Below are positions 3,500 through 41,055 of a stretch of 64,000 bases of DNA, piece by piece. Position 1 is the stretch's first letter, and the number at the start of each line of letters is the position of its first letter. Where the stretch lies: positions 1 to 64,000 of the IMG/VR virus record IMGVR_UViG_3300025112_006940; one strand, given 5' to 3'. This stretch comes from a virus. The notes under the pieces were generated by a model that was given only the letters and a program-made list of their open reading frames with translations, was not told the origin of the DNA and ran no database searches. Position numbers and translations under genes: made by a program.

Positions 3500-3570
3500 T
3501 TGCATCTAAAGTTTAAATCATCATACTTATGTATTAATAATATATTGTAAGGCACATTAATAAAATATGA

Positions 3571-3637
3571 CTGAAGCGAGGGCCGTGGCTACATCTTATC
3601 TAAAATGACAACGAAAAAGCCACCCTATTTATCTCAA
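3571..3637 (+). ncRNA. Y RNA-like element, copy 1 (short)
   Basis: TGAAGCGA..GTGGCT-ACATCT..AGCCAC..ATTTATCTCA; shares motifs with three other copies around the TROVE gene. Confidence 0.65.
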
Positions 3638-3655: not shown

Positions 3656-3717
3656 CTGAAGCGACTGAATTGGCTACATCTCACTGCAAATGAAACTGCC
3701 ATTCATACATATCTCAG
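3656..3717 (+). ncRNA. Y RNA-like element, copy 2 (short, contains TCA-CTGCAAA-TGA anticodon-like hairpin)
   Basis: CTGA/TCAG and TGAAT-GGC/GCC-ATTCA stems, TACATCT linker. Confidence 0.65.
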
Positions 3718-3728
3718 GAGGATATAAT

Positions 3729-5357
3729 ATGGGTAAATTAAAAGCACATGCACAAAAGCGTGATGCAATAGTTCGTAAATTTAAAGAAGAACAAGTAACT
3801 AACTTTATGGATGGAATTTCTTATAAAGTTAATCCGTTAGATACATTAAAAATTATAGCATCATCTTCAATTTTTGGTGAACCTTCCTATTATCGTAAAT
3901 CAAAAGCAAGCAGAAGTAGATCATATGTTCATATGCAAATAGATAAAGTTCCATTTTTATTTGCTCATTATAAAGATCCAAAAATGTCAACTGAAGATGT
4001 ATTTGAAGATGCAATTGATAATGCATTAGAATTTGATTTTTTTGGAACATTGAAACTTGCTGTAGAGTTACGTTCAGCATATCAAATGAGATTAAACCCA
4101 TCTGTAATTGTAATGAGAGCTGCAGTTCATCCAAAAAGAGTAGAATTTTCAAAAGAAGCTCCTGGGCTTTTGCGTGATACAATTCGCAAAGTTATTCAAA
4201 GACCAGATGATTCATTTAATCAATTTGAATATTATATGTATATGAATGGATCTAAAAAAGGATTGCCATCAGTTGTAAAAAGAGCTTGGGGAGATAAGCT
4301 TACAAATTCTCCAGCATGGGCATTAAAGAAATATATTCAACCAAGATTATTTGATATTGTAAATATTGCCCATCCAAAGAAATCAGAAGCCTTAGCAGAG
4401 CTTATGACTACTGGTGATATTAAAGTTGATGAATCTGATACAAAATGGGAAACTTTAAGGGCTCAAGGAAAGTCATTTAAGGAAATATATGAAGCTGGAA
4501 GATTTAATCATATGGCTTTGCTTAGAAATTTAAGAAATATTTTTACAGAAACTGAAGATCTAAATTTTGCAAAAATAGTTGTTGAAGATCTAAAAAATGG
4601 AGTAGAAAAAGGTAGACAGTTCCCGTTTAGATATTATACAGCTCATAATATTTTGCATGGTAATAGAGATATAAATCATTTACCAATTTTGCTTGATGGT
4701 TTAGAGGATTGTATTGATTTAGCTATGGATAATTTTCCTAAGCTTGATGGCAAAACAATGTGTTTAGCAGATAATTCAGGTTCAGCACATGGTGCATTAC
4801 CAAGTCAATATGGTACTGTAAATGTTGCTCAAATTGCAAATCTTTCAAGTATAATGACTGCTGCAAATTCTGATGAAGGTTATGTTGGAGTTTTTGGTGA
4901 TACATTAAAAATATCTGCAATTAAAAAAAGAGCAGGTATTCTTGAGCAACACAAGAAAATAAATGGGCTTAGAGGTACTATTGGTGGAGGAACAGAGCAT
5001 GGTATTTGGTTATTTTGGGAACAAGCATTAGCTGAAAAACAACATTGGGATAATGTATTTATTTATTCTGATATGCAAGCAGGTCATGGTAATTTGTATG
5101 GTCATGGCAGAATTGCTAATAAGTTTTTAGTTGCTGGCGATAGTAGGCATATCGATGTATTAAAATGTGTTCAAGCTTACCGTGAAGAAGTTAATCCAAA
5201 GGTAAATGTATTTTCAGTACAAGTAGCAGGATATGATAATTCTGTACTTCCAGAAAATTTATACAGAACAGCTTTACTTTCAGGTTGGACTGGAAATGAA
5301 ACAATTTATGCAAATTCATTGAACAATGTTTGGGATCAATTAGAACAAAGGCAATAA
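3729..5357 (+). CDS. rsr: Ro60/Rsr TROVE-domain RNA-binding protein with C-terminal vWA
   Basis: WET, HMALLRNLRNI, QFPFRYYTA, vWA DNSGS and YSDMQ; AGGAGG RBS supports ATG 3729. Confidence 0.92.
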   Translation: MGKLKAHAQKRDAIVRKFKEEQVTNFMDGISYKVNPLDTLKIIASSSIFGEPSYYRKSKASRSRSYVHMQIDKVPFLFAHYKDPKMSTEDVFEDAIDNALEFDFFGTLKLAVELRSAYQMRLNPSVIVMRAAVHPKRVEFSKEAPGLLRDTIRKVIQRPDDSFNQFEYYMYMNGSKKGLPSVVKRAWGDKLTNSPAWALKKYIQPRLFDIVNIAHPKKSEALAELMTTGDIKVDESDTKWETLRAQGKSFKEIYEAGRFNHMALLRNLRNIFTETEDLNFAKIVVEDLKNGVEKGRQFPFRYYTAHNILHGNRDINHLPILLDGLEDCIDLAMDNFPKLDGKTMCLADNSGSAHGALPSQYGTVNVAQIANLSSIMTAANSDEGYVGVFGDTLKISAIKKRAGILEQHKKINGLRGTIGGGTEHGIWLFWEQALAEKQHWDNVFIYSDMQAGHGNLYGHGRIANKFLVAGDSRHIDVLKCVQAYREEVNPKVNVFSVQVAGYDNSVLPENLYRTALLSGWTGNETIYANSLNNVWDQLEQRQ

Positions 5358-5365
5358 ATAAATAA

Positions 5366-5511
5366 TCAGAAGCGAGGAATATAGTTACATCTACTTATAA
5401 GAGAGAGACTCTGGTTCGAGTCCAGATTTATGGAAAATGCCAGCTTGCTGGAAAATGCCGTAAATAGCTTAATAGGAAAAGCGCTATATTTCTATATCCA
5501 TTTATCTCTGA
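5366..5511 (+). ncRNA. YrlA-like Y RNA with permuted tRNA module, copy 3
   Basis: T arm TCTGG-TTCGAGT-CCAGA, acceptor TTTATGG/CCGTAAA, D arm GCTT-AATAGGAA-AAGC, closed by TCAGA/TCTGA stem. Confidence 0.85.
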
Positions 5512-5522
5512 GTATAAAATTA

Positions 5523-5667
5523 GATAGTAAAAAGAAGCAAAATGTTTAGCTACATCTGGTAAAAATTGTCCTCAAAACAATTGATACGGTTCAAACCCGT
5601 TAAGATTGAGTTGATTTCGATCAATTCAAATGCAACACTGCTATTCATACTGATCTCTTTTATTATC
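5523..5667 (+). ncRNA. Y RNA-like element, copy 4
   Basis: GAAGCAA..GCTACATCT, T-arm ACGG-TTCAAAC-CCGT, TTGAGTTGAT-TTCG-ATCAATTCAA hairpin, ..GATCTCTTTT closing stem. Confidence 0.75.
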
Positions 5668-5677
5668 GATAAAAACG

Positions 5678-5709
5678 AATGTCTTGGTATAAAAACCAAG
5701 GCATTTTTT
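5678..5709 (+). terminator. intrinsic terminator after the Ro60/Y RNA unit
   Basis: AATGTCTTGGT/ACCAAGGCATT stem + T run. Confidence 0.7.
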
Positions 5710-16774: not shown

Positions 16775-16850
16775 ACTCCCGTCGTCTACTGGTTTAAGGC
16801 CTCAGTCTTATATGCTGATGAAGAGGGTTCAATTCCCTCCGGGAGCACCA
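16775..16850 (+). tRNA. tRNA-Ile(TAT)
   Basis: TCAGT-CTTATAT-GCTGA, CCA; A1:C72 mismatch. Confidence 0.8.
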
Positions 16851-38621: not shown

Positions 38622-39241
38622 TTGATAAAAAAGCAGCTAAGGCTGTTGATCAAGCAATAAAGGTTTTAAATAAATACATACTTGAGTCTGATAAAATTTC
38701 AAATGAAAGAAAAGATCAGGTTAACAATGTATTAGAAGTTTTAGGTGAGAGGTTATTTACTGCACCGGCTTCAACAAAAACTGCAATGCATTCAGCATAT
38801 CCTGGCGGATTGATTGTTCATTCATTAGCAGTAACAAGGAGAATATTTGATTTATGCGGCGCATTTGAGGTTTCAGAAGAAGATGTGCCGCATGACTCAA
38901 AAGTAATTGTTGGTTTATTCCATGATATTGGAAAAATAGGAACATATGATGGAATACCTCAATATATGCCAGAAGAATCAGAATGGCATAGAACCAAACT
39001 TGGCCAAATATATAATTACAATAAAAATCTTGATGATGCACTTACACATGCTCAAAGATCAGCAAGATTATTAGGGCAATGCGGATTGATTTTAACTGAT
39101 CAAGAATATGCATCAATATTGATTCATGATGGAATTTATATTGAAACAAATAAATCAAGAGAAGCTATGTATACTAAAATTAAATTAGCGAGAATTGCAC
39201 ATTTTGCTGATTCATGGGTTGCTTTACAGGAGGATATTTAA
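38618..39241 (+). CDS. HD-domain phosphohydrolase
   Basis: APAS..H...GGLIVHS, FHDIGK, HDG, HFAD. Confidence 0.88.
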   Translation: MIDKKAAKAVDQAIKVLNKYILESDKISNERKDQVNNVLEVLGERLFTAPASTKTAMHSAYPGGLIVHSLAVTRRIFDLCGAFEVSEEDVPHDSKVIVGLFHDIGKIGTYDGIPQYMPEESEWHRTKLGQIYNYNKNLDDALTHAQRSARLLGQCGLILTDQEYASILIHDGIYIETNKSREAMYTKIKLARIAHFADSWVALQEDI

Positions 39242-39242
39242 T

Positions 39243-40043
39243 ATGAAACTTACATTCGTAGGTTGTGGTTCTGCATTTAATAAGTTAAGTCTTCAAAGCA
39301 ATATGCTTTTAGAAGCTGAGTCTGGTAAAAAAATGCTTATTGATTGTGGTTCTTATGCGCATATAGGATTATTATCTGCATTAGGGATTAATGAAACAAA
39401 TTATGCAGATGAAATTGATTCTATTTATATTTCACATCAACATGGAGATCATATTGATGGGTTAGAAGAAATTGCATTTTGCACATATTTTAATCCTAAT
39501 GCTCCAAAAATTGCACTTTATTGCGAGCAATATCTAATGCATAGAATTTGGGATGAAAGTCTTAAAGGTGGATTAGGATCTGTTCAAGGCAAAGTAATGC
39601 ATCTTACAGATTATTTTGATTGTAGGCCATTGAATGTTAATGTTATAAATCAATGGGAGGGAATTAATTTTGAATTAGTTCAAACACTTCATGTGATGAA
39701 TGGATTTGAATTTGTTCCAAGCTATGGTTTAATGATAAAAGAAGAAAAGGTAAATGCTAAAAATATATTTTTAACAACAGATACACAACATTGCCCAAAT
39801 CAAATTCAAGATTTTTATGATATGGCAGATGTTATATTTCATGATTGTGAAACAGCACCTTATTTTTCTGGTGTTCATGCCCGCTATGATGAATTAAAAA
39901 CGCTGAATAAAGAAACAAAAAAGAAAATGTGGTTATATCATTATCAACCGGAACCACCACAAATGAAAACTGCAAGAGAAGATGGTTTTAGAGGACTAGT
40001 TACAAGAGGCCAAAGTTTTAAGTACGAGGTGAAAAATGAGTGA
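39243..40043 (+). CDS. MBL-fold metallo-hydrolase (RNase Z-like)
   Basis: GCGSAF, LIDCG, SHQHGDH, TTDT, FHDC, LYHY. Confidence 0.88.
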   Translation: MKLTFVGCGSAFNKLSLQSNMLLEAESGKKMLIDCGSYAHIGLLSALGINETNYADEIDSIYISHQHGDHIDGLEEIAFCTYFNPNAPKIALYCEQYLMHRIWDESLKGGLGSVQGKVMHLTDYFDCRPLNVNVINQWEGINFELVQTLHVMNGFEFVPSYGLMIKEEKVNAKNIFLTTDTQHCPNQIQDFYDMADVIFHDCETAPYFSGVHARYDELKTLNKETKKKMWLYHYQPEPPQMKTAREDGFRGLVTRGQSFKYEVKNE

Positions 40044-41055
40044 ATTAATTGTTGAAGTTTGTAAAATAGATGAAATAAGATCACATAGTAATGCAGATAA
40101 ATTAGAAATTGCTATAGTGAAGGGGTGGTCTGTTATTACACAAAAAGGAAAATATAAGGCTGGAGATCTAGTTGTCCATGTTCCCCCAGATACGATTCTT
40201 ACTGAAGAACTTTCAGAACAGCTCGAAGTTACAAAATACCTTTCTAAGCAAAGAGTAAAGGCTGTAAGATTACGTGGTGAAATGAGTTTTGGTTTAATAT
40301 TTGAGCCACCACTTGGGCATCATCAAGAAGGTACGTCAGTTGTAGATTTTTATAAAATGAGAAAATGGGAGCCACCTGAAGAATCTATTCAAGGTGATTC
40401 AGAAGTAGATGCTACATTTTTTGTTAAATACACAAGCATTGAAAACTATAGAAATTTTCCTTTGATGATTGCTGAAGGTGAAGATGTAATTATAACTGAA
40501 AAAATTCATGGAACAAATTCAAGAGTAGGATATTGTTTTGATACTAAGGCGCAAGAACCTATTTTCATGATTGGCTCTCATAACAGACGAAGAAAAATTG
40601 ATGTTGAGAGCTTATATCATAAACCATTAACTGATAATGTAAAATCATTGCTTAAACAATTATATGATAGCTGGGACAATTGTGCAGCAGTAATTTTATA
40701 TGGCGAAATTTATGGACGTGGTATTCAAGATTTAGGTTATGATATAGAACATTCTTTTGCTGCATTTGATATAAAGAGAGATGATCATTATTTTGATTAT
40801 TCAGCAATGAAAGATTTATGTGATTCATTTGAAATTCCAACAGTTCCAGTATTATATCGTGGCCCATTTAGCAAAGAAATTTTAGAAAAATATTACATGG
40901 GCACTACAATAGTTGGAAATAATTCAAATCAAATTAGGGAAGGCGTTGTTGTTAAACCAACTTTTGAACATAGAAATGCTCGTGGTCGTAGAGTAATATT
41001 GAAAATGATAAGCGATGATTATCTCGTTAGAAAAGATGGTACAGAAAGACATTAG
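40036..41055 (+). CDS. ATP-dependent RNA ligase (DRB0094/Rnl5-like) with N-terminal tRNA-binding OB fold
   Basis: HSNADKLEI..LRGEMSFG; TEKIHGTN, YGEIYG, FDI, REGVVVK, LKMIS. Confidence 0.9.
   Translation: MSELIVEVCKIDEIRSHSNADKLEIAIVKGWSVITQKGKYKAGDLVVHVPPDTILTEELSEQLEVTKYLSKQRVKAVRLRGEMSFGLIFEPPLGHHQEGTSVVDFYKMRKWEPPEESIQGDSEVDATFFVKYTSIENYRNFPLMIAEGEDVIITEKIHGTNSRVGYCFDTKAQEPIFMIGSHNRRRKIDVESLYHKPLTDNVKSLLKQLYDSWDNCAAVILYGEIYGRGIQDLGYDIEHSFAAFDIKRDDHYFDYSAMKDLCDSFEIPTVPVLYRGPFSKEILEKYYMGTTIVGNNSNQIREGVVVKPTFEHRNARGRRVILKMISDDYLVRKDGTERH

What the first reader, a model, noticed from the sequence alone, without database searches (positions are those of the whole stretch)
5366..5511. Circularly permuted near-complete tRNA inside Y RNA copy 3
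Seen: the order is anticodon loop (CTTATAA) - variable - T arm (TCTGG TTCGAGT CCAGA) - acceptor 3' strand (TTTATGG, A) - linker with CCAGC-TT-GCTGG hairpin - acceptor 5' strand (CCGTAAA) - U8A9 - D arm (GCTT AATAGGAA AAGC). This is a tRNA opened at the D/anticodon junction. Typical YrlA RNAs replace the anticodon arm with the Ro-binding stem; here an anticodon loop is also retained. Inference: either an elbow+anticodon mimic or a precursor that RNase P/Z-type cuts plus the phage RNA ligase could convert to a tRNA, as with permuted tRNA genes of algae and archaea.
Basis: partly seen in the sequence, partly recalled or inferred. Interest (0 to 1): 0.72.

Follow-up and report, generated by a model that had tools for sequence, protein, structure and literature searches.

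The report
Phage Y RNA with back-to-front tRNA
This 146-base stretch is a small non-coding "Y RNA" of a marine phage that sits right behind the gene for its partner protein Ro60 and carries a rearranged tRNA look-alike. This design is already known for bacterial and phage Y RNAs, so it is a new example of a known thing, not a new kind of tRNA gene.

Summary

The element (5366-5511, + strand) starts 9 nt after a TROVE/Ro60 gene and is one of four Y-RNA-like elements around it. A covariance model built without the window scores it 77.8 bits (E about 4e-20) over exactly these coordinates.

The permuted-tRNA layout is the published hallmark of YrlA-type Y RNAs (Chen 2014; Wang 2018). The "retained anticodon loop" is their "V" stem-loop, so it is not special to this copy.

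Across 77 related phage elements:
- 50 have a 5-bp stem and a 7-nt loop with U at loop position 2 and a purine at position 6 (2.3 expected by chance).
- The stem covaries.
- A 4-5-nt AGGUC-like tail follows the hairpin.
- The same model segment also hits the anticodon, variable and T region of real tRNAs.

The window's copy is a weak example, with 3 of 5 stem pairs.

Maturation into a decoding tRNA is unsupported. I found no bulge-helix-bulge (BHB) motif and no splicing endonuclease. Acceptor ends do not match the "anticodons". The proposed MBL enzyme matches anti-Pycsar Apyc1.

This scan has noted phage Ro60 with permuted-tRNA Y RNAs before on other DNA.

The parts
3729..5357 (+). Ro60 (TROVE) homolog. 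The ORF is open from 3690, but the likely start is ATG 3729, behind AGGAGG.
   Evidence: Pfam TROVE 32.4 bits, cut-off 23. 45% identical to Bacillus phage G gp540, annotated 'RNA-binding protein'. 3686 homologs at E<=1e-30, mostly 535-555 aa. Start context checked.
5366..5511 (+).
   Evidence: Model R2, built without the window: 77.8 bits, E 4e-20, model positions 1-131 of 131. Model R1: 90.4 bits.
5366..5377 (+). 5' strand of the closing stem (UCAGA) and the Ro-handle motif GAAGCGAGG.
   Evidence: The same motif is in all four window copies and in 165 elements beside Ro genes. Compare GNCGAAN0-1G in Chen 2014.
5376..5384 (+). 5' strand of the second helix (GGAAUAUAG).
   Evidence: Pairs with 5484-5492 in the MFE fold, or with 5493-5499 in the register of the homologs.
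5385..5388 (+). UUAC, the conserved YUAY motif.
   Evidence: Near-invariant in alignments A2 and A6. Chen 2014, Fig. 2 legend: YUAY begins the V loop.
5389..5405 (+). Anticodon-arm-like hairpin (the 'V' stem-loop): AUCUA, CUUAUAA, GAGAG.
   Evidence: Family-wide 5-bp stem and 7-nt loop signature with covariation. Only 3 of 5 pairs in this copy.
5406..5409 (+). Variable-loop-like tail AGAC (the family consensus is AGGUC).
   Evidence: The same tail is seen in L101:6884-7016.
5410..5426 (+). T arm: UCUGG, UUCGAGU, CCAGA.
   Evidence: The T stem is 99.5% paired across 76 relatives.
5427..5434 (+). Acceptor 3' strand UUUAUGG plus A at the discriminator position.
   Evidence: 7 of 7 pairs with 5458-5464.
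5435..5457 (+). Linker that closes the acceptor stem. It holds the hairpin CCAGC-UU-GCUGG (5440-5451). The 11-nt repeat UGGAAAAUGCC lies at 5431-5441 and 5449-5459.
   Evidence: Linker length varies from 3 to about 35 nt in relatives.
5458..5466 (+). Acceptor 5' strand CCGUAAA, then U8 A9.
5467..5483 (+). D arm GCUU, AAUAGGAA, AAGC, then G26.
   Evidence: A14, G18, G19 and A21 are at tRNA positions.
5484..5511 (+). 3' strand of the handle: CUAUAU UUC UAUAUCC, the conserved CAUUUAUCUC, and the closing-stem strand UCUGA.
   Evidence: Aligned to the model consensus auUUaUUCuCggg.
3571..3637 (+). Short Y-RNA-like element, copy 1 (handle only).
   Evidence: Shares GAAGCGAGG, CUACAUCU and UAUUUAUCUC.
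3656..3717 (+). Short Y-RNA-like element, copy 2. Its 3' end abuts the Ro ribosome-binding site.
5531..5660 (+). Y-RNA-like element, copy 4. It has the same handle but a tRNA-like interior in normal order: anticodon-like arm AUUGU CCUCAAA ACAAU, then T arm ACGG UUCAAAC CCGU.
   Evidence: Not matched by the permuted models R1 and R2.
5677..5706 (+). Intrinsic terminator that ends the unit.
   Evidence: 12-bp stem followed by a T run.

Best explanation
Window 5366-5511 is a YrlA-type Y RNA of a marine tRNA-rich phage. It is transcribed with the Ro60 gene, inferred from a promoter-like site at 3512-3541 and the terminator at 5677-5706. It is then presumably trimmed out of the transcript.

Its two ends pair into a handle that carries the conserved GAAGCGAGG and CAUUUAUCUC motifs. 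By analogy with other Y RNAs, this is where phage Ro60 binds.

The interior is a tRNA look-alike whose acceptor stem is closed by a linker. It presents a tRNA-shaped body (T/D elbow, 7-bp acceptor helix, anticodon-like hairpin) to some tRNA-binding factor, and so tethers that factor, or its substrates, to Ro60.

Shown here: the anatomy, the neighbourhood, family membership, and conservation and covariation of the hairpin.

Inferred from published relatives: Ro60 binding, folding into an L shape, modification by tRNA enzymes, and possible RNase P cleavage at G5457/C5458.

The hairpin is the 'V' stem-loop of the literature. Its sequence signature is that of an anticodon arm followed by a class-I variable loop. 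The module therefore most likely descends from a whole tRNA (or tRNA pair) opened at position 26/27. It works as a mimic, not as a decoder.
For: - Position: 9 nt downstream of a TROVE gene, on the same strand.
- Independent model R2: 77.8 bits, E 4e-20, full length.
- The same handle is found in 165 elements beside 80 phage Ro genes.
- Relatives of the element give sub-threshold hits to Rfam YrlA RF02553, 32-42 bits, E 7e-6 to 4e-3.
- Chen 2014 (PMC4201824, sections 5-6, 8) and Wang 2018 (10.1101/312249) describe the same order: stem, YUAY, V, T, AS, D, stem. They call it circularly-permuted-tRNA-like.
- Six of seven tRNA tertiary contacts are possible from the sequence: U8:A14, G18:U55, G19:C56, U54:A58, G53:C61, G26:A44.
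- The hairpin signature is met in 50 of 77 relatives, against 2.3 expected.
- All five stem pairs covary. The closing pair is CG 18, AU 16, UA 9, GC 2.
- Model positions 24-62 hit the anticodon, variable and T region of at least 10 real tRNAs in the window.
Against: - No experiment or RNA read covers the element. RNA-library contigs lie only in the Ro coding region at low depth.
- The Rfam YrlA model does not find the window element even at E<=10.
- The handle motif reads CGAG, not CGAA.
- The Levitt pair would be A15/C48.
- The hairpin of this copy is thermodynamically marginal.
- The closest Ro relatives (L004-L040) carry Y RNAs with other interiors.
- The effector of any YrlA is unknown.
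Confidence: 0.8

Rival explanations
1. Nicked or split tRNA mimic (this can coexist with the best explanation). RNase P cuts 5' of C5458, the 3' trailer is trimmed, and CCA is added after A5434. The result is two RNA pieces held together by the acceptor stem and the Ro handle, as reported for M. smegmatis YrlA.
For: - The acceptor stem has 7 bp, and position 73 is unpaired.
- Chen 2014, section 8: M. smegmatis YrlA, the tested YrlA with a 7-bp stem, is cut by RNase P RNA in vitro and receives CCA in vivo.
- Some relatives encode ACCA right after the acceptor 3' strand: phage G L002, L171:9884-10018 and L196.
Against: - No CCA is encoded here (A, then AAAUG).
- Many relatives close the acceptor with tight UUCG, GCAA or GAAA loops or have 6-bp stems, so cleavage is not a family rule.
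- PF01743 (CCA-adding enzyme family) has no hit in the record, though the host would supply the enzyme.
- No read data.
Confidence: 0.2
2. Permuted pre-tRNA. The Ro handle is excised, G5483 is ligated to A5389, the acceptor is opened, and a decoding tRNA-Ile(UAU) results.
For: - Joined in silico in that order, the sequence is called tRNA-Ile(UAU) by ARAGORN, as are 52-55 of 61 relatives.
- The phage encodes an RNA ligase at 40036-41055.
- Wang 2018 raises processing as a possibility for YrlA RNAs.
Against: - ARAGORN still of 61 when the hairpin and tail are shuffled, so that test is lenient.
- The anticodon stem has only 3 of 5 pairs.
- No bulge-helix-bulge motif flanks the junction (by inspection).
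- No splicing endonuclease or RtcB domain is in the record.
- The MBL protein is Apyc1-like.
- The first acceptor pair and position 73 do not follow the 'anticodon'.
- D and T arms are nearly the same whatever the triplet.
- The phage already has tRNA-Ile(UAU) at 16775-16850, and it is not the closest tRNA to this module.
- The handle is conserved as a Ro-binding unit, not as a disposable spacer.
Confidence: 0.04
3. Anticodon-loop decoy or sensor (this can coexist with the best explanation). The hairpin is a working anticodon stem-loop mimic. It is recognised by anticodon nucleases or by position-37 modification enzymes, so the Ro60 particle lures or reports enzymes that attack or modify particular tRNAs.
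For: - Family-wide conservation of U at loop position 2 (51 of 53), purine at 6 (50 of 53) and A at 7 (50 of 53), while the middle triplet varies: 25 different triplets.
- Loops fall mainly into U36-A37-A38 and G36-G37-A38 types.
- Several phages keep one GUU-type and one NGG-type element side by side: L049, L053, L057, L074.
Against: - Purely sequence-based.
- The stem's 5' strand is part of the UUACUUCG motif, which is also conserved in Y RNAs without any tRNA part. Some of the conservation therefore has another cause.
- The window's own hairpin is weak.
- In the solved S. Typhimurium YrlA structure the handle, not a hairpin, occupies the anticodon-stem position (Wang 2018).
Confidence: 0.15
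4. Decayed remnant of two neighbouring tRNA genes, with no function.
For: Adjacent tRNA pairs give partial hits to the same models, positions 24-106. Chen 2014 lists dimeric tRNAs as false positives.
Against: - The two acceptor strands pair with each other 7 of 7.
- The match is full length, including the Ro handle.
- More than 100 relatives show covariation.
Confidence: 0.02

Closest known systems
[quoted passage not shown] Chen et al. 2014, PMC4201824; Wang et al. 2018, 10.1101/312249; Rfam RF02553.
   Same: - Lies next to Ro60 on the same strand.
- Terminal handle with a CGA-containing 5' motif.
- YUAY, V hairpin, T arm, closed acceptor stem, UA, D arm, in that order.
- tRNA tertiary-contact nucleotides are present.
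- 7-bp acceptor stem, as in M. smegmatis.
   Different: - Not found by RF02553; relatives reach only 32-42 of the 69 bits needed.
- The handle reads GAAGCGAGG.
- Long 23-nt acceptor linker with its own hairpin and an 11-nt repeat.
- Marine AT-rich phage.
- Part of a four-member array with two handle-only RNAs and one normal-order tRNA-like RNA.
- S. Typhimurium YrlA has no V hairpin.
D. radiodurans Yrn1 and Thermus phage phiLo Yrl1/Yrl2 (PMC12135203).
   Same: Ro60-bound Y RNAs. Yrn1 has a T arm and an anticodon-arm-like hairpin. The phage Ro60 plus Yrl can assemble with host PNPase.
   Different: In Yrn1 the tRNA-like part is in the other orientation, like window copy 4 and unlike copy 3. The phiLo RNAs were described without a tRNA-like domain.
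Circularly permuted tRNA genes of Cyanidioschyzon merolae and other algae, and one archaeon (Soma 2007, Maruyama 2010 and Chan 2011, as cited in Wang 2018).
   Same: The 3' half is encoded before the 5' half. The acceptor stem is first closed by a linker. The ends of the transcript pair.
   Different: - Those use a bulge-helix-bulge motif and the splicing endonuclease, pass through a circular intermediate, and yield decoding tRNAs.
- From my own knowledge, not checked here, their break points lie inside loops.
- Here the break is at 26/27 and the paired ends are a conserved Ro handle. No endonuclease is seen.
Canonical tRNA genes of the same phage (26 in the window).
   Same: Same anticodon-arm, variable-loop and T-arm geometry (the model segment cross-hits them). 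Same D and T loop consensus.
   Different: Not detected as tRNA in place. Permuted order. Best identity to any of them is 67%.

Membership tests
YrlA-type Y RNA (Chen et al. 2014) | Encoded within about 4 kb of a Ro60/TROVE gene, on the same strand | tested here: met
   Starts 9 nt after the stop of the TROVE ORF (Pfam 32.4 bits), + strand.
YrlA-type Y RNA (Chen et al. 2014) | Paired 5' and 3' ends with the 5' motif GNCGAAN0-1G | tested here: inconclusive
   The ends pair (UCAGA/UCUGA plus a second helix). The motif is GAAGCGAGG: CGA is kept, the following A is G. It is conserved in all four window copies and in 165 related elements, as G[AU][AU]GC[AG].
YrlA-type Y RNA (Chen et al. 2014) | T stem-loop, then a closed 'acceptor' stem-loop, then UA and a D stem-loop | tested here: met
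   Full-length model match.
YrlA-type Y RNA (Chen et al. 2014) | Conserved YUAY before the V region | tested here: met
   UUAC at 5385-5388. Near-invariant in A2 and A6.
YrlA-type Y RNA (Chen et al. 2014) | Nucleotides for the tRNA tertiary contacts, including the 15:48 Levitt pair | tested here: inconclusive
   U8:A14, G18:U55, G19:C56, U54:A58, G53:C61 and G26:A44 are possible. 15:48 would be A/C, which is not a standard Levitt pair.
YrlA-type Y RNA (Chen et al. 2014) | Reaches the curated Rfam RF02553 score (69 bits) | tested here: not met
   No RF02553 hit on 5366-5511 even at E<=10. Relatives reach 32-42 bits. This is an operational threshold, not an architectural feature.
YrlA-type Y RNA (Chen et al. 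2014) | Bound by Ro60; carries pseudouridine 55 and dihydrouridine | not testable with these tools
   Needs immunoprecipitation and modification mapping.
Circularly permuted tRNA gene (algal/archaeal type) | 3' half encoded upstream of the 5' half in one transcript | tested here: met
   Order shown. The break is at position 26/27.
Circularly permuted tRNA gene (algal/archaeal type) | Bulge-helix-bulge motif at the paired leader/trailer junction | tested here: not met
   By inspection of the fold and the model alignment, the junction is a 4-nt UUAC on one side and 1 or 10 nt on the other, next to an 8-9-bp helix. There is no 3-4-3 motif.
Circularly permuted tRNA gene (algal/archaeal type) | Splicing endonuclease available | tested here: inconclusive
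   PF01974 is absent from the 76.5-kb record. The control rings in 4 archaea. The record is about 41% complete and the host is unknown.
Circularly permuted tRNA gene (algal/archaeal type) | Mature product is a sound tRNA whose identity elements fit its anticodon | tested here: not met
   The anticodon stem has 3 of 5 pairs here. Across 61 relatives the 1:72 pair and position 73 do not follow the triplet. The ARAGORN call is lenient.
Canonical tRNA gene | Detected in place by ARAGORN or Rfam RF00005 | tested here: not met
   No call at 5366-5511.

The most novel reading that the evidence does not exclude
The 'V' stem-loop of YrlA-type Y RNAs is not a variable arm. It is a conserved, working anticodon stem-loop mimic: 5-bp stem, 7-nt loop, U33, R37, A38, then a class-I variable loop. 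On this reading, phage Ro60 particles display complete tRNA look-alikes with defined 'anticodons' (GUU, UGU, GCU, GAU and NGG types). These would serve as decoys, sensors or substrates for anticodon-directed enzymes. In copies with a 7-bp acceptor stem, such as this one, they may exist as two-piece CCA-tailed tRNA-like RNAs.
Probability: 0.2. Interest if true: 0.65.

Novelty: new member of a known kind. Interest (0 to 1): 0.36.

Why it matters
On its own the element adds one more phage to the list of Ro60/Y RNA carriers.

The family-level by-product is more useful. The hairpin that the literature calls a variable arm carries the full sequence signature of an anticodon arm in most phage relatives, and real tRNAs cross-match it. 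This favours an origin of these Y RNAs from whole tRNAs opened at position 26/27.

It also gives a concrete handle for finding the unknown effector of YrlA RNAs: mutate or probe the loop, then look for position-37 modification or nuclease cleavage. In addition, it shows that the curated Rfam model misses a large phage branch of the family.

Tried and rejected
- Rfam scans of the window, at gathering score and at E<=10, gave no Y RNA or YrlA hit on the element.
- A single-protein scan of viral contigs found no relative. The alignment-based scan did.
- The reviews PMC6047535 and PMC10870794 are not held. I could not check whether the anticodon-like nature of V is already stated there.
- Sequencing runs: DNA holders are marine or seawater metagenomes. 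Three RNA libraries hold only 150-167-nt contigs inside the Ro coding region (4986-5269) at depth 2-3, and nothing over the Y RNAs. There is therefore no evidence on expression, ends, joints or circles.
- PF01974, PF01743 and PF01139 are absent from the 76.5-kb record. This is weak evidence, because the record is about 41% complete.
- The in-silico de-permuted module is not especially close to the phage's own tRNA-Ile(UAU). The best match is Arg-UCU at 67%, so a recent copy of that gene is rejected.
- There is no link between the 'anticodon' and the acceptor end.
- ARAGORN calls on de-permuted sequences looked striking (55 of 61). A shuffle control still gave 27 of 61, so I do not lean on them.

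Full report
**What is there.** The window comes from a 76.5-kb viral contig (about 41% complete) of a marine phage. Its DNA is held by marine and seawater metagenomes, and it carries 26 tRNA genes. An ORF ending at 5357 encodes a TROVE/Ro60 homolog. It scores 32.4 bits on Pfam TROVE, is 45% identical to Bacillus phage G gp540, and has thousands of homologs of 535-555 aa. Its real start is probably ATG 3729, behind AGGAGG.

Four related small elements flank the gene on the same strand: 3571-3637, 3656-3717, 5366-5511 and 5531-5660. A terminator at 5677-5706 ends the unit. All four share a 5' GAAGC(G/A)A motif, a helix, (C/U)UACAUCU just after the helix, and a 3' CAU..AUCUC motif.

**Check of the observation.**
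- hairpin AUCUA/CUUAUAA/GAGAG (5389-5405);
- tail AGAC;
- T arm UCUGG-UUCGAGU-CCAGA (5410-5426);
- acceptor 3' strand UUUAUGG plus A;
- a 23-nt linker with CCAGC-UU-GCUGG;
- acceptor 5' strand CCGUAAA (7 of 7 pairs);
- U8A9;
- D arm GCUU-AAUAGGAA-AAGC;
- G26.

The borders 5366 and 5511 are the two strands of a closing stem. From the sequence, six of the seven classical tRNA tertiary contacts can form. The 15:48 pair would be A/C.

The hairpin of this copy is weak. It has three Watson-Crick pairs flanked by A.G oppositions, and ViennaRNA prefers a different 4-nt-loop fold (-1.7 against +1.1 kcal/mol).

**Relatives.** An alignment of 29 Ro homologs retrieved 80 viral contigs with 2-kb flanks. 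A simple pattern for the handle found 165 elements beside these Ro genes, usually several per locus. The handle is therefore a family-wide unit with interchangeable interiors:
- bare loops;
- T-arm-only forms;
- tRNA-like bodies in normal order (some are even called tRNA by ARAGORN);
- permuted bodies like the one in question.

A pattern scan that did not constrain the hairpin (TTACWTC, 18-32 nt, GGTTCRANTCC) added 118 more contigs, including GC-rich ones.

I built two covariance models. R1 includes the window sequence. R2 was built from 32 elements without it. R2 matches window 5366-5511 end to end at 77.8 bits, E about 4e-20. The models found about 27 full-length members beside Ro genes and more than 80 in the other contigs.

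Rfam's YrlA model (RF02553, gathering score 69 bits) does not report the window element. It does hit the relatives below threshold, at 32-42 bits and E 7e-6 to 4e-3, including the Bacillus phage G element. According to PMC12135203, phage G is one of the phages in which Chen et al. reported a Y-like RNA.

**Comparison with the literature.** Chen et al. 2014 (PMC4201824) define YrlA RNAs by these features:
- a position beside Ro60 on the same strand;
- a 5' GNCGAAN0-1G motif;
- a conserved YUAY;
- an often present 'V' stem-loop upstream of the T stem-loop;
- a closed 'acceptor' stem-loop;
- a D stem-loop.

Wang et al. 2018 solved the Salmonella domain. [quoted passage not shown]

**What the hairpin is.** Here my data go a little beyond the papers I could read.
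- The distance from YUAC to the T stem peaks sharply at 22 nt (28 of 66) and 21 nt (10 of 66). This equals 5+7+5 plus a 5- or 4-nt tail.
- Of 77 distinct elements, 53 have at least 4 of 5 pairs in that parse. In these, loop position 2 is U in 51, position 6 is a purine in 50, position 7 is A in 50, and position 1 is a pyrimidine in 45. The middle triplet takes 25 values; GUU, UGU, GCU and GAU are the most common. The tail is most often AGGUC.
- The joint criterion (at least 4 of 5 pairs, U at position 2, purine at position 6) is met by 50 of 77. Shuffles give a mean of 2.3 and a maximum of 7 in 200. In the Ro-anchored subset it is met by 11 of 21.
- On a plain MAFFT alignment of 76 sequences, all five stem pairs show changes on both sides. 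The closing pair is CG 18, AU 16, UA 9, GC 2. No shuffle out of 500 reaches the covariation score, and slid registers fall from 0.54 to at most 0.16.
- Model positions 24-62 (hairpin, tail, T arm) also match the anticodon arm, variable loop and T arm of at least ten genuine tRNAs of the window, for example tRNA-Pro at 28 bits.

In sequence terms the hairpin plus tail is an anticodon arm plus class-I variable loop, not a class-II variable arm. The Ro handle enters between the D arm and this arm.

Three cautions apply:
- The stem's 5' strand is part of the UUACUUCG motif, which is also conserved in Y RNAs without a tRNA part.
- In the Salmonella crystal structure the handle itself takes the anticodon-stem position.
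- The window copy meets only 3 of 5 pairs. The A.G at the outer pair is shared with other 'ACAUC' members; the inner A.G is its own.

**Could it become a tRNA?** Joined in silico at 26/27, the window module is called tRNA-Ile(UAU) by ARAGORN, as are 52-55 of 61 relatives. A control with the hairpin and tail shuffled still gives 27 of 61, so this is weak evidence.

Evidence against maturation into a decoding tRNA:
- No bulge-helix-bulge motif at the junction (by inspection).
- No tRNA-splicing endonuclease, RtcB or CCA-adding enzyme domain in the record (the record is incomplete).
- The RNA ligase is 35 kb away, beside tRNA-Cys.
- Across relatives the first acceptor pair and position 73 do not follow the 'anticodon', while the D and T arms stay nearly constant. 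This fits a common partner, not different synthetases.
- Many relatives close the acceptor with tight tetraloops.
- The phage already has tRNA-Ile(UAU), and that gene is not the nearest relative of the module.

[quoted passage not shown] It has a 7-bp acceptor stem, like M. smegmatis YrlA, which Chen et al. report to be cleaved by RNase P and to receive CCA (Chen 2014, section 8). Some relatives even encode ACCA at that spot.

**Expression.** No usable data. RNA-library contigs touch only the Ro coding region at low depth.

**Verdict.** The element is a YrlA-type Y RNA of a phage Ro60 particle. This is a known kind, and this scan has also met it repeatedly on other DNA. The 'retained anticodon loop' is a family trait, not a peculiarity of this copy. 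The tRNA-precursor idea is unsupported.

The residual interest lies in two points. The anticodon-arm signature of the V hairpin is strong and family-wide. A large phage branch escapes the Rfam model.

Noticed in passing
window 5531-5660 (+): Copy 4 has the same Ro handle, but its tRNA-like interior is in normal order, as in D. radiodurans Yrn1. It has a D-loop remnant UGGUAAAA, a 5-bp/7-nt hairpin AUUGU CCUCAAA ACAAU, a T arm ACGG UUCAAAC CCGU, and then an extra 10-bp hairpin with a UUCG loop. Its fold z-score is -5.2.
   Followed up: partly
window 3571-3637 and 3656-3717 (+): Two short handle-only Y-RNA-like elements lie upstream of Ro60. The 3' closing strand of the second runs into the AGGAGG ribosome-binding site, and the Ro start is probably 3729, not 3690. 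This could couple RNA folding or processing with Ro translation.
   Followed up: partly
window 5431-5441 and 5449-5459: An exact 11-nt direct repeat UGGAAAAUGCC straddles both sides of the acceptor linker. It gives a symmetric 6x6 internal loop between the 7-bp acceptor stem and the CCAGC/GCUGG hairpin.
   Followed up: no
window 5484-5499: The 3' strand of the second helix has two mutually exclusive registers: CUAUAUUUC (the MFE fold, 9 bp, directly after G26) and UAUAUCC (the register used by homologs). This is a possible conformational switch, or simply a repeat.
   Followed up: partly
window 39195-40043 and 40036-41055 (+): The MBL-fold protein matches Pfam Anti-Pycsar Apyc1 at 92 bits (cut-off 50). 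The next gene is an RNA ligase (PF09414 plus the PHA02142 OB fold), and it abuts tRNA-Cys at 41055. This looks like a counter-defence and tRNA-repair corner, not tRNA maturation.
   Followed up: partly
L002:309-460 (Bacillus phage G), L171:9884-10018, L196:599-757: These YrlA-type relatives encode ACCA directly after the acceptor 3' strand, as if a ready-made tRNA 3' end were exposed after cleavage. Many other relatives instead close the stem with UUCG, GCAA or GAAA tetraloops.
   Followed up: no
L049, L053, L057, L074 (about 100-700 nt downstream of Ro): Several phages keep two permuted elements side by side. One has a CUGUUAA (GUU) loop and an AGGUC tail. The other has a UUNGGGN (NGG) loop and a GUGUC or GGGUC tail. 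The NGG-type members often start the acceptor with C1-G72. The pairing of types looks conserved.
   Followed up: partly
A3, A4, A7 alignments (family level): Hairpin loops fall mostly into U36-A37-A38 (34 of 53 have U at that position) and G36-G37-A38 classes. In real tRNAs these are the contexts of t6A37 and m1G37. A36 and C36 contexts are rare.
   Followed up: no
L004-L040 (the closest Ro relatives, 50-55% identity): Their Y-RNA-like elements lie upstream of Ro and carry long, different interiors without T or D arms. The permuted-tRNA interior is not shared with the window's nearest Ro relatives, so interiors seem to be swapped between handles.
   Followed up: no
L077:5131-5531: A tmRNA gene (Rfam 87.9 bits; also called by ARAGORN) lies 1.2 kb downstream of the Ro/YrlA unit in one related phage contig.
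   Followed up: no
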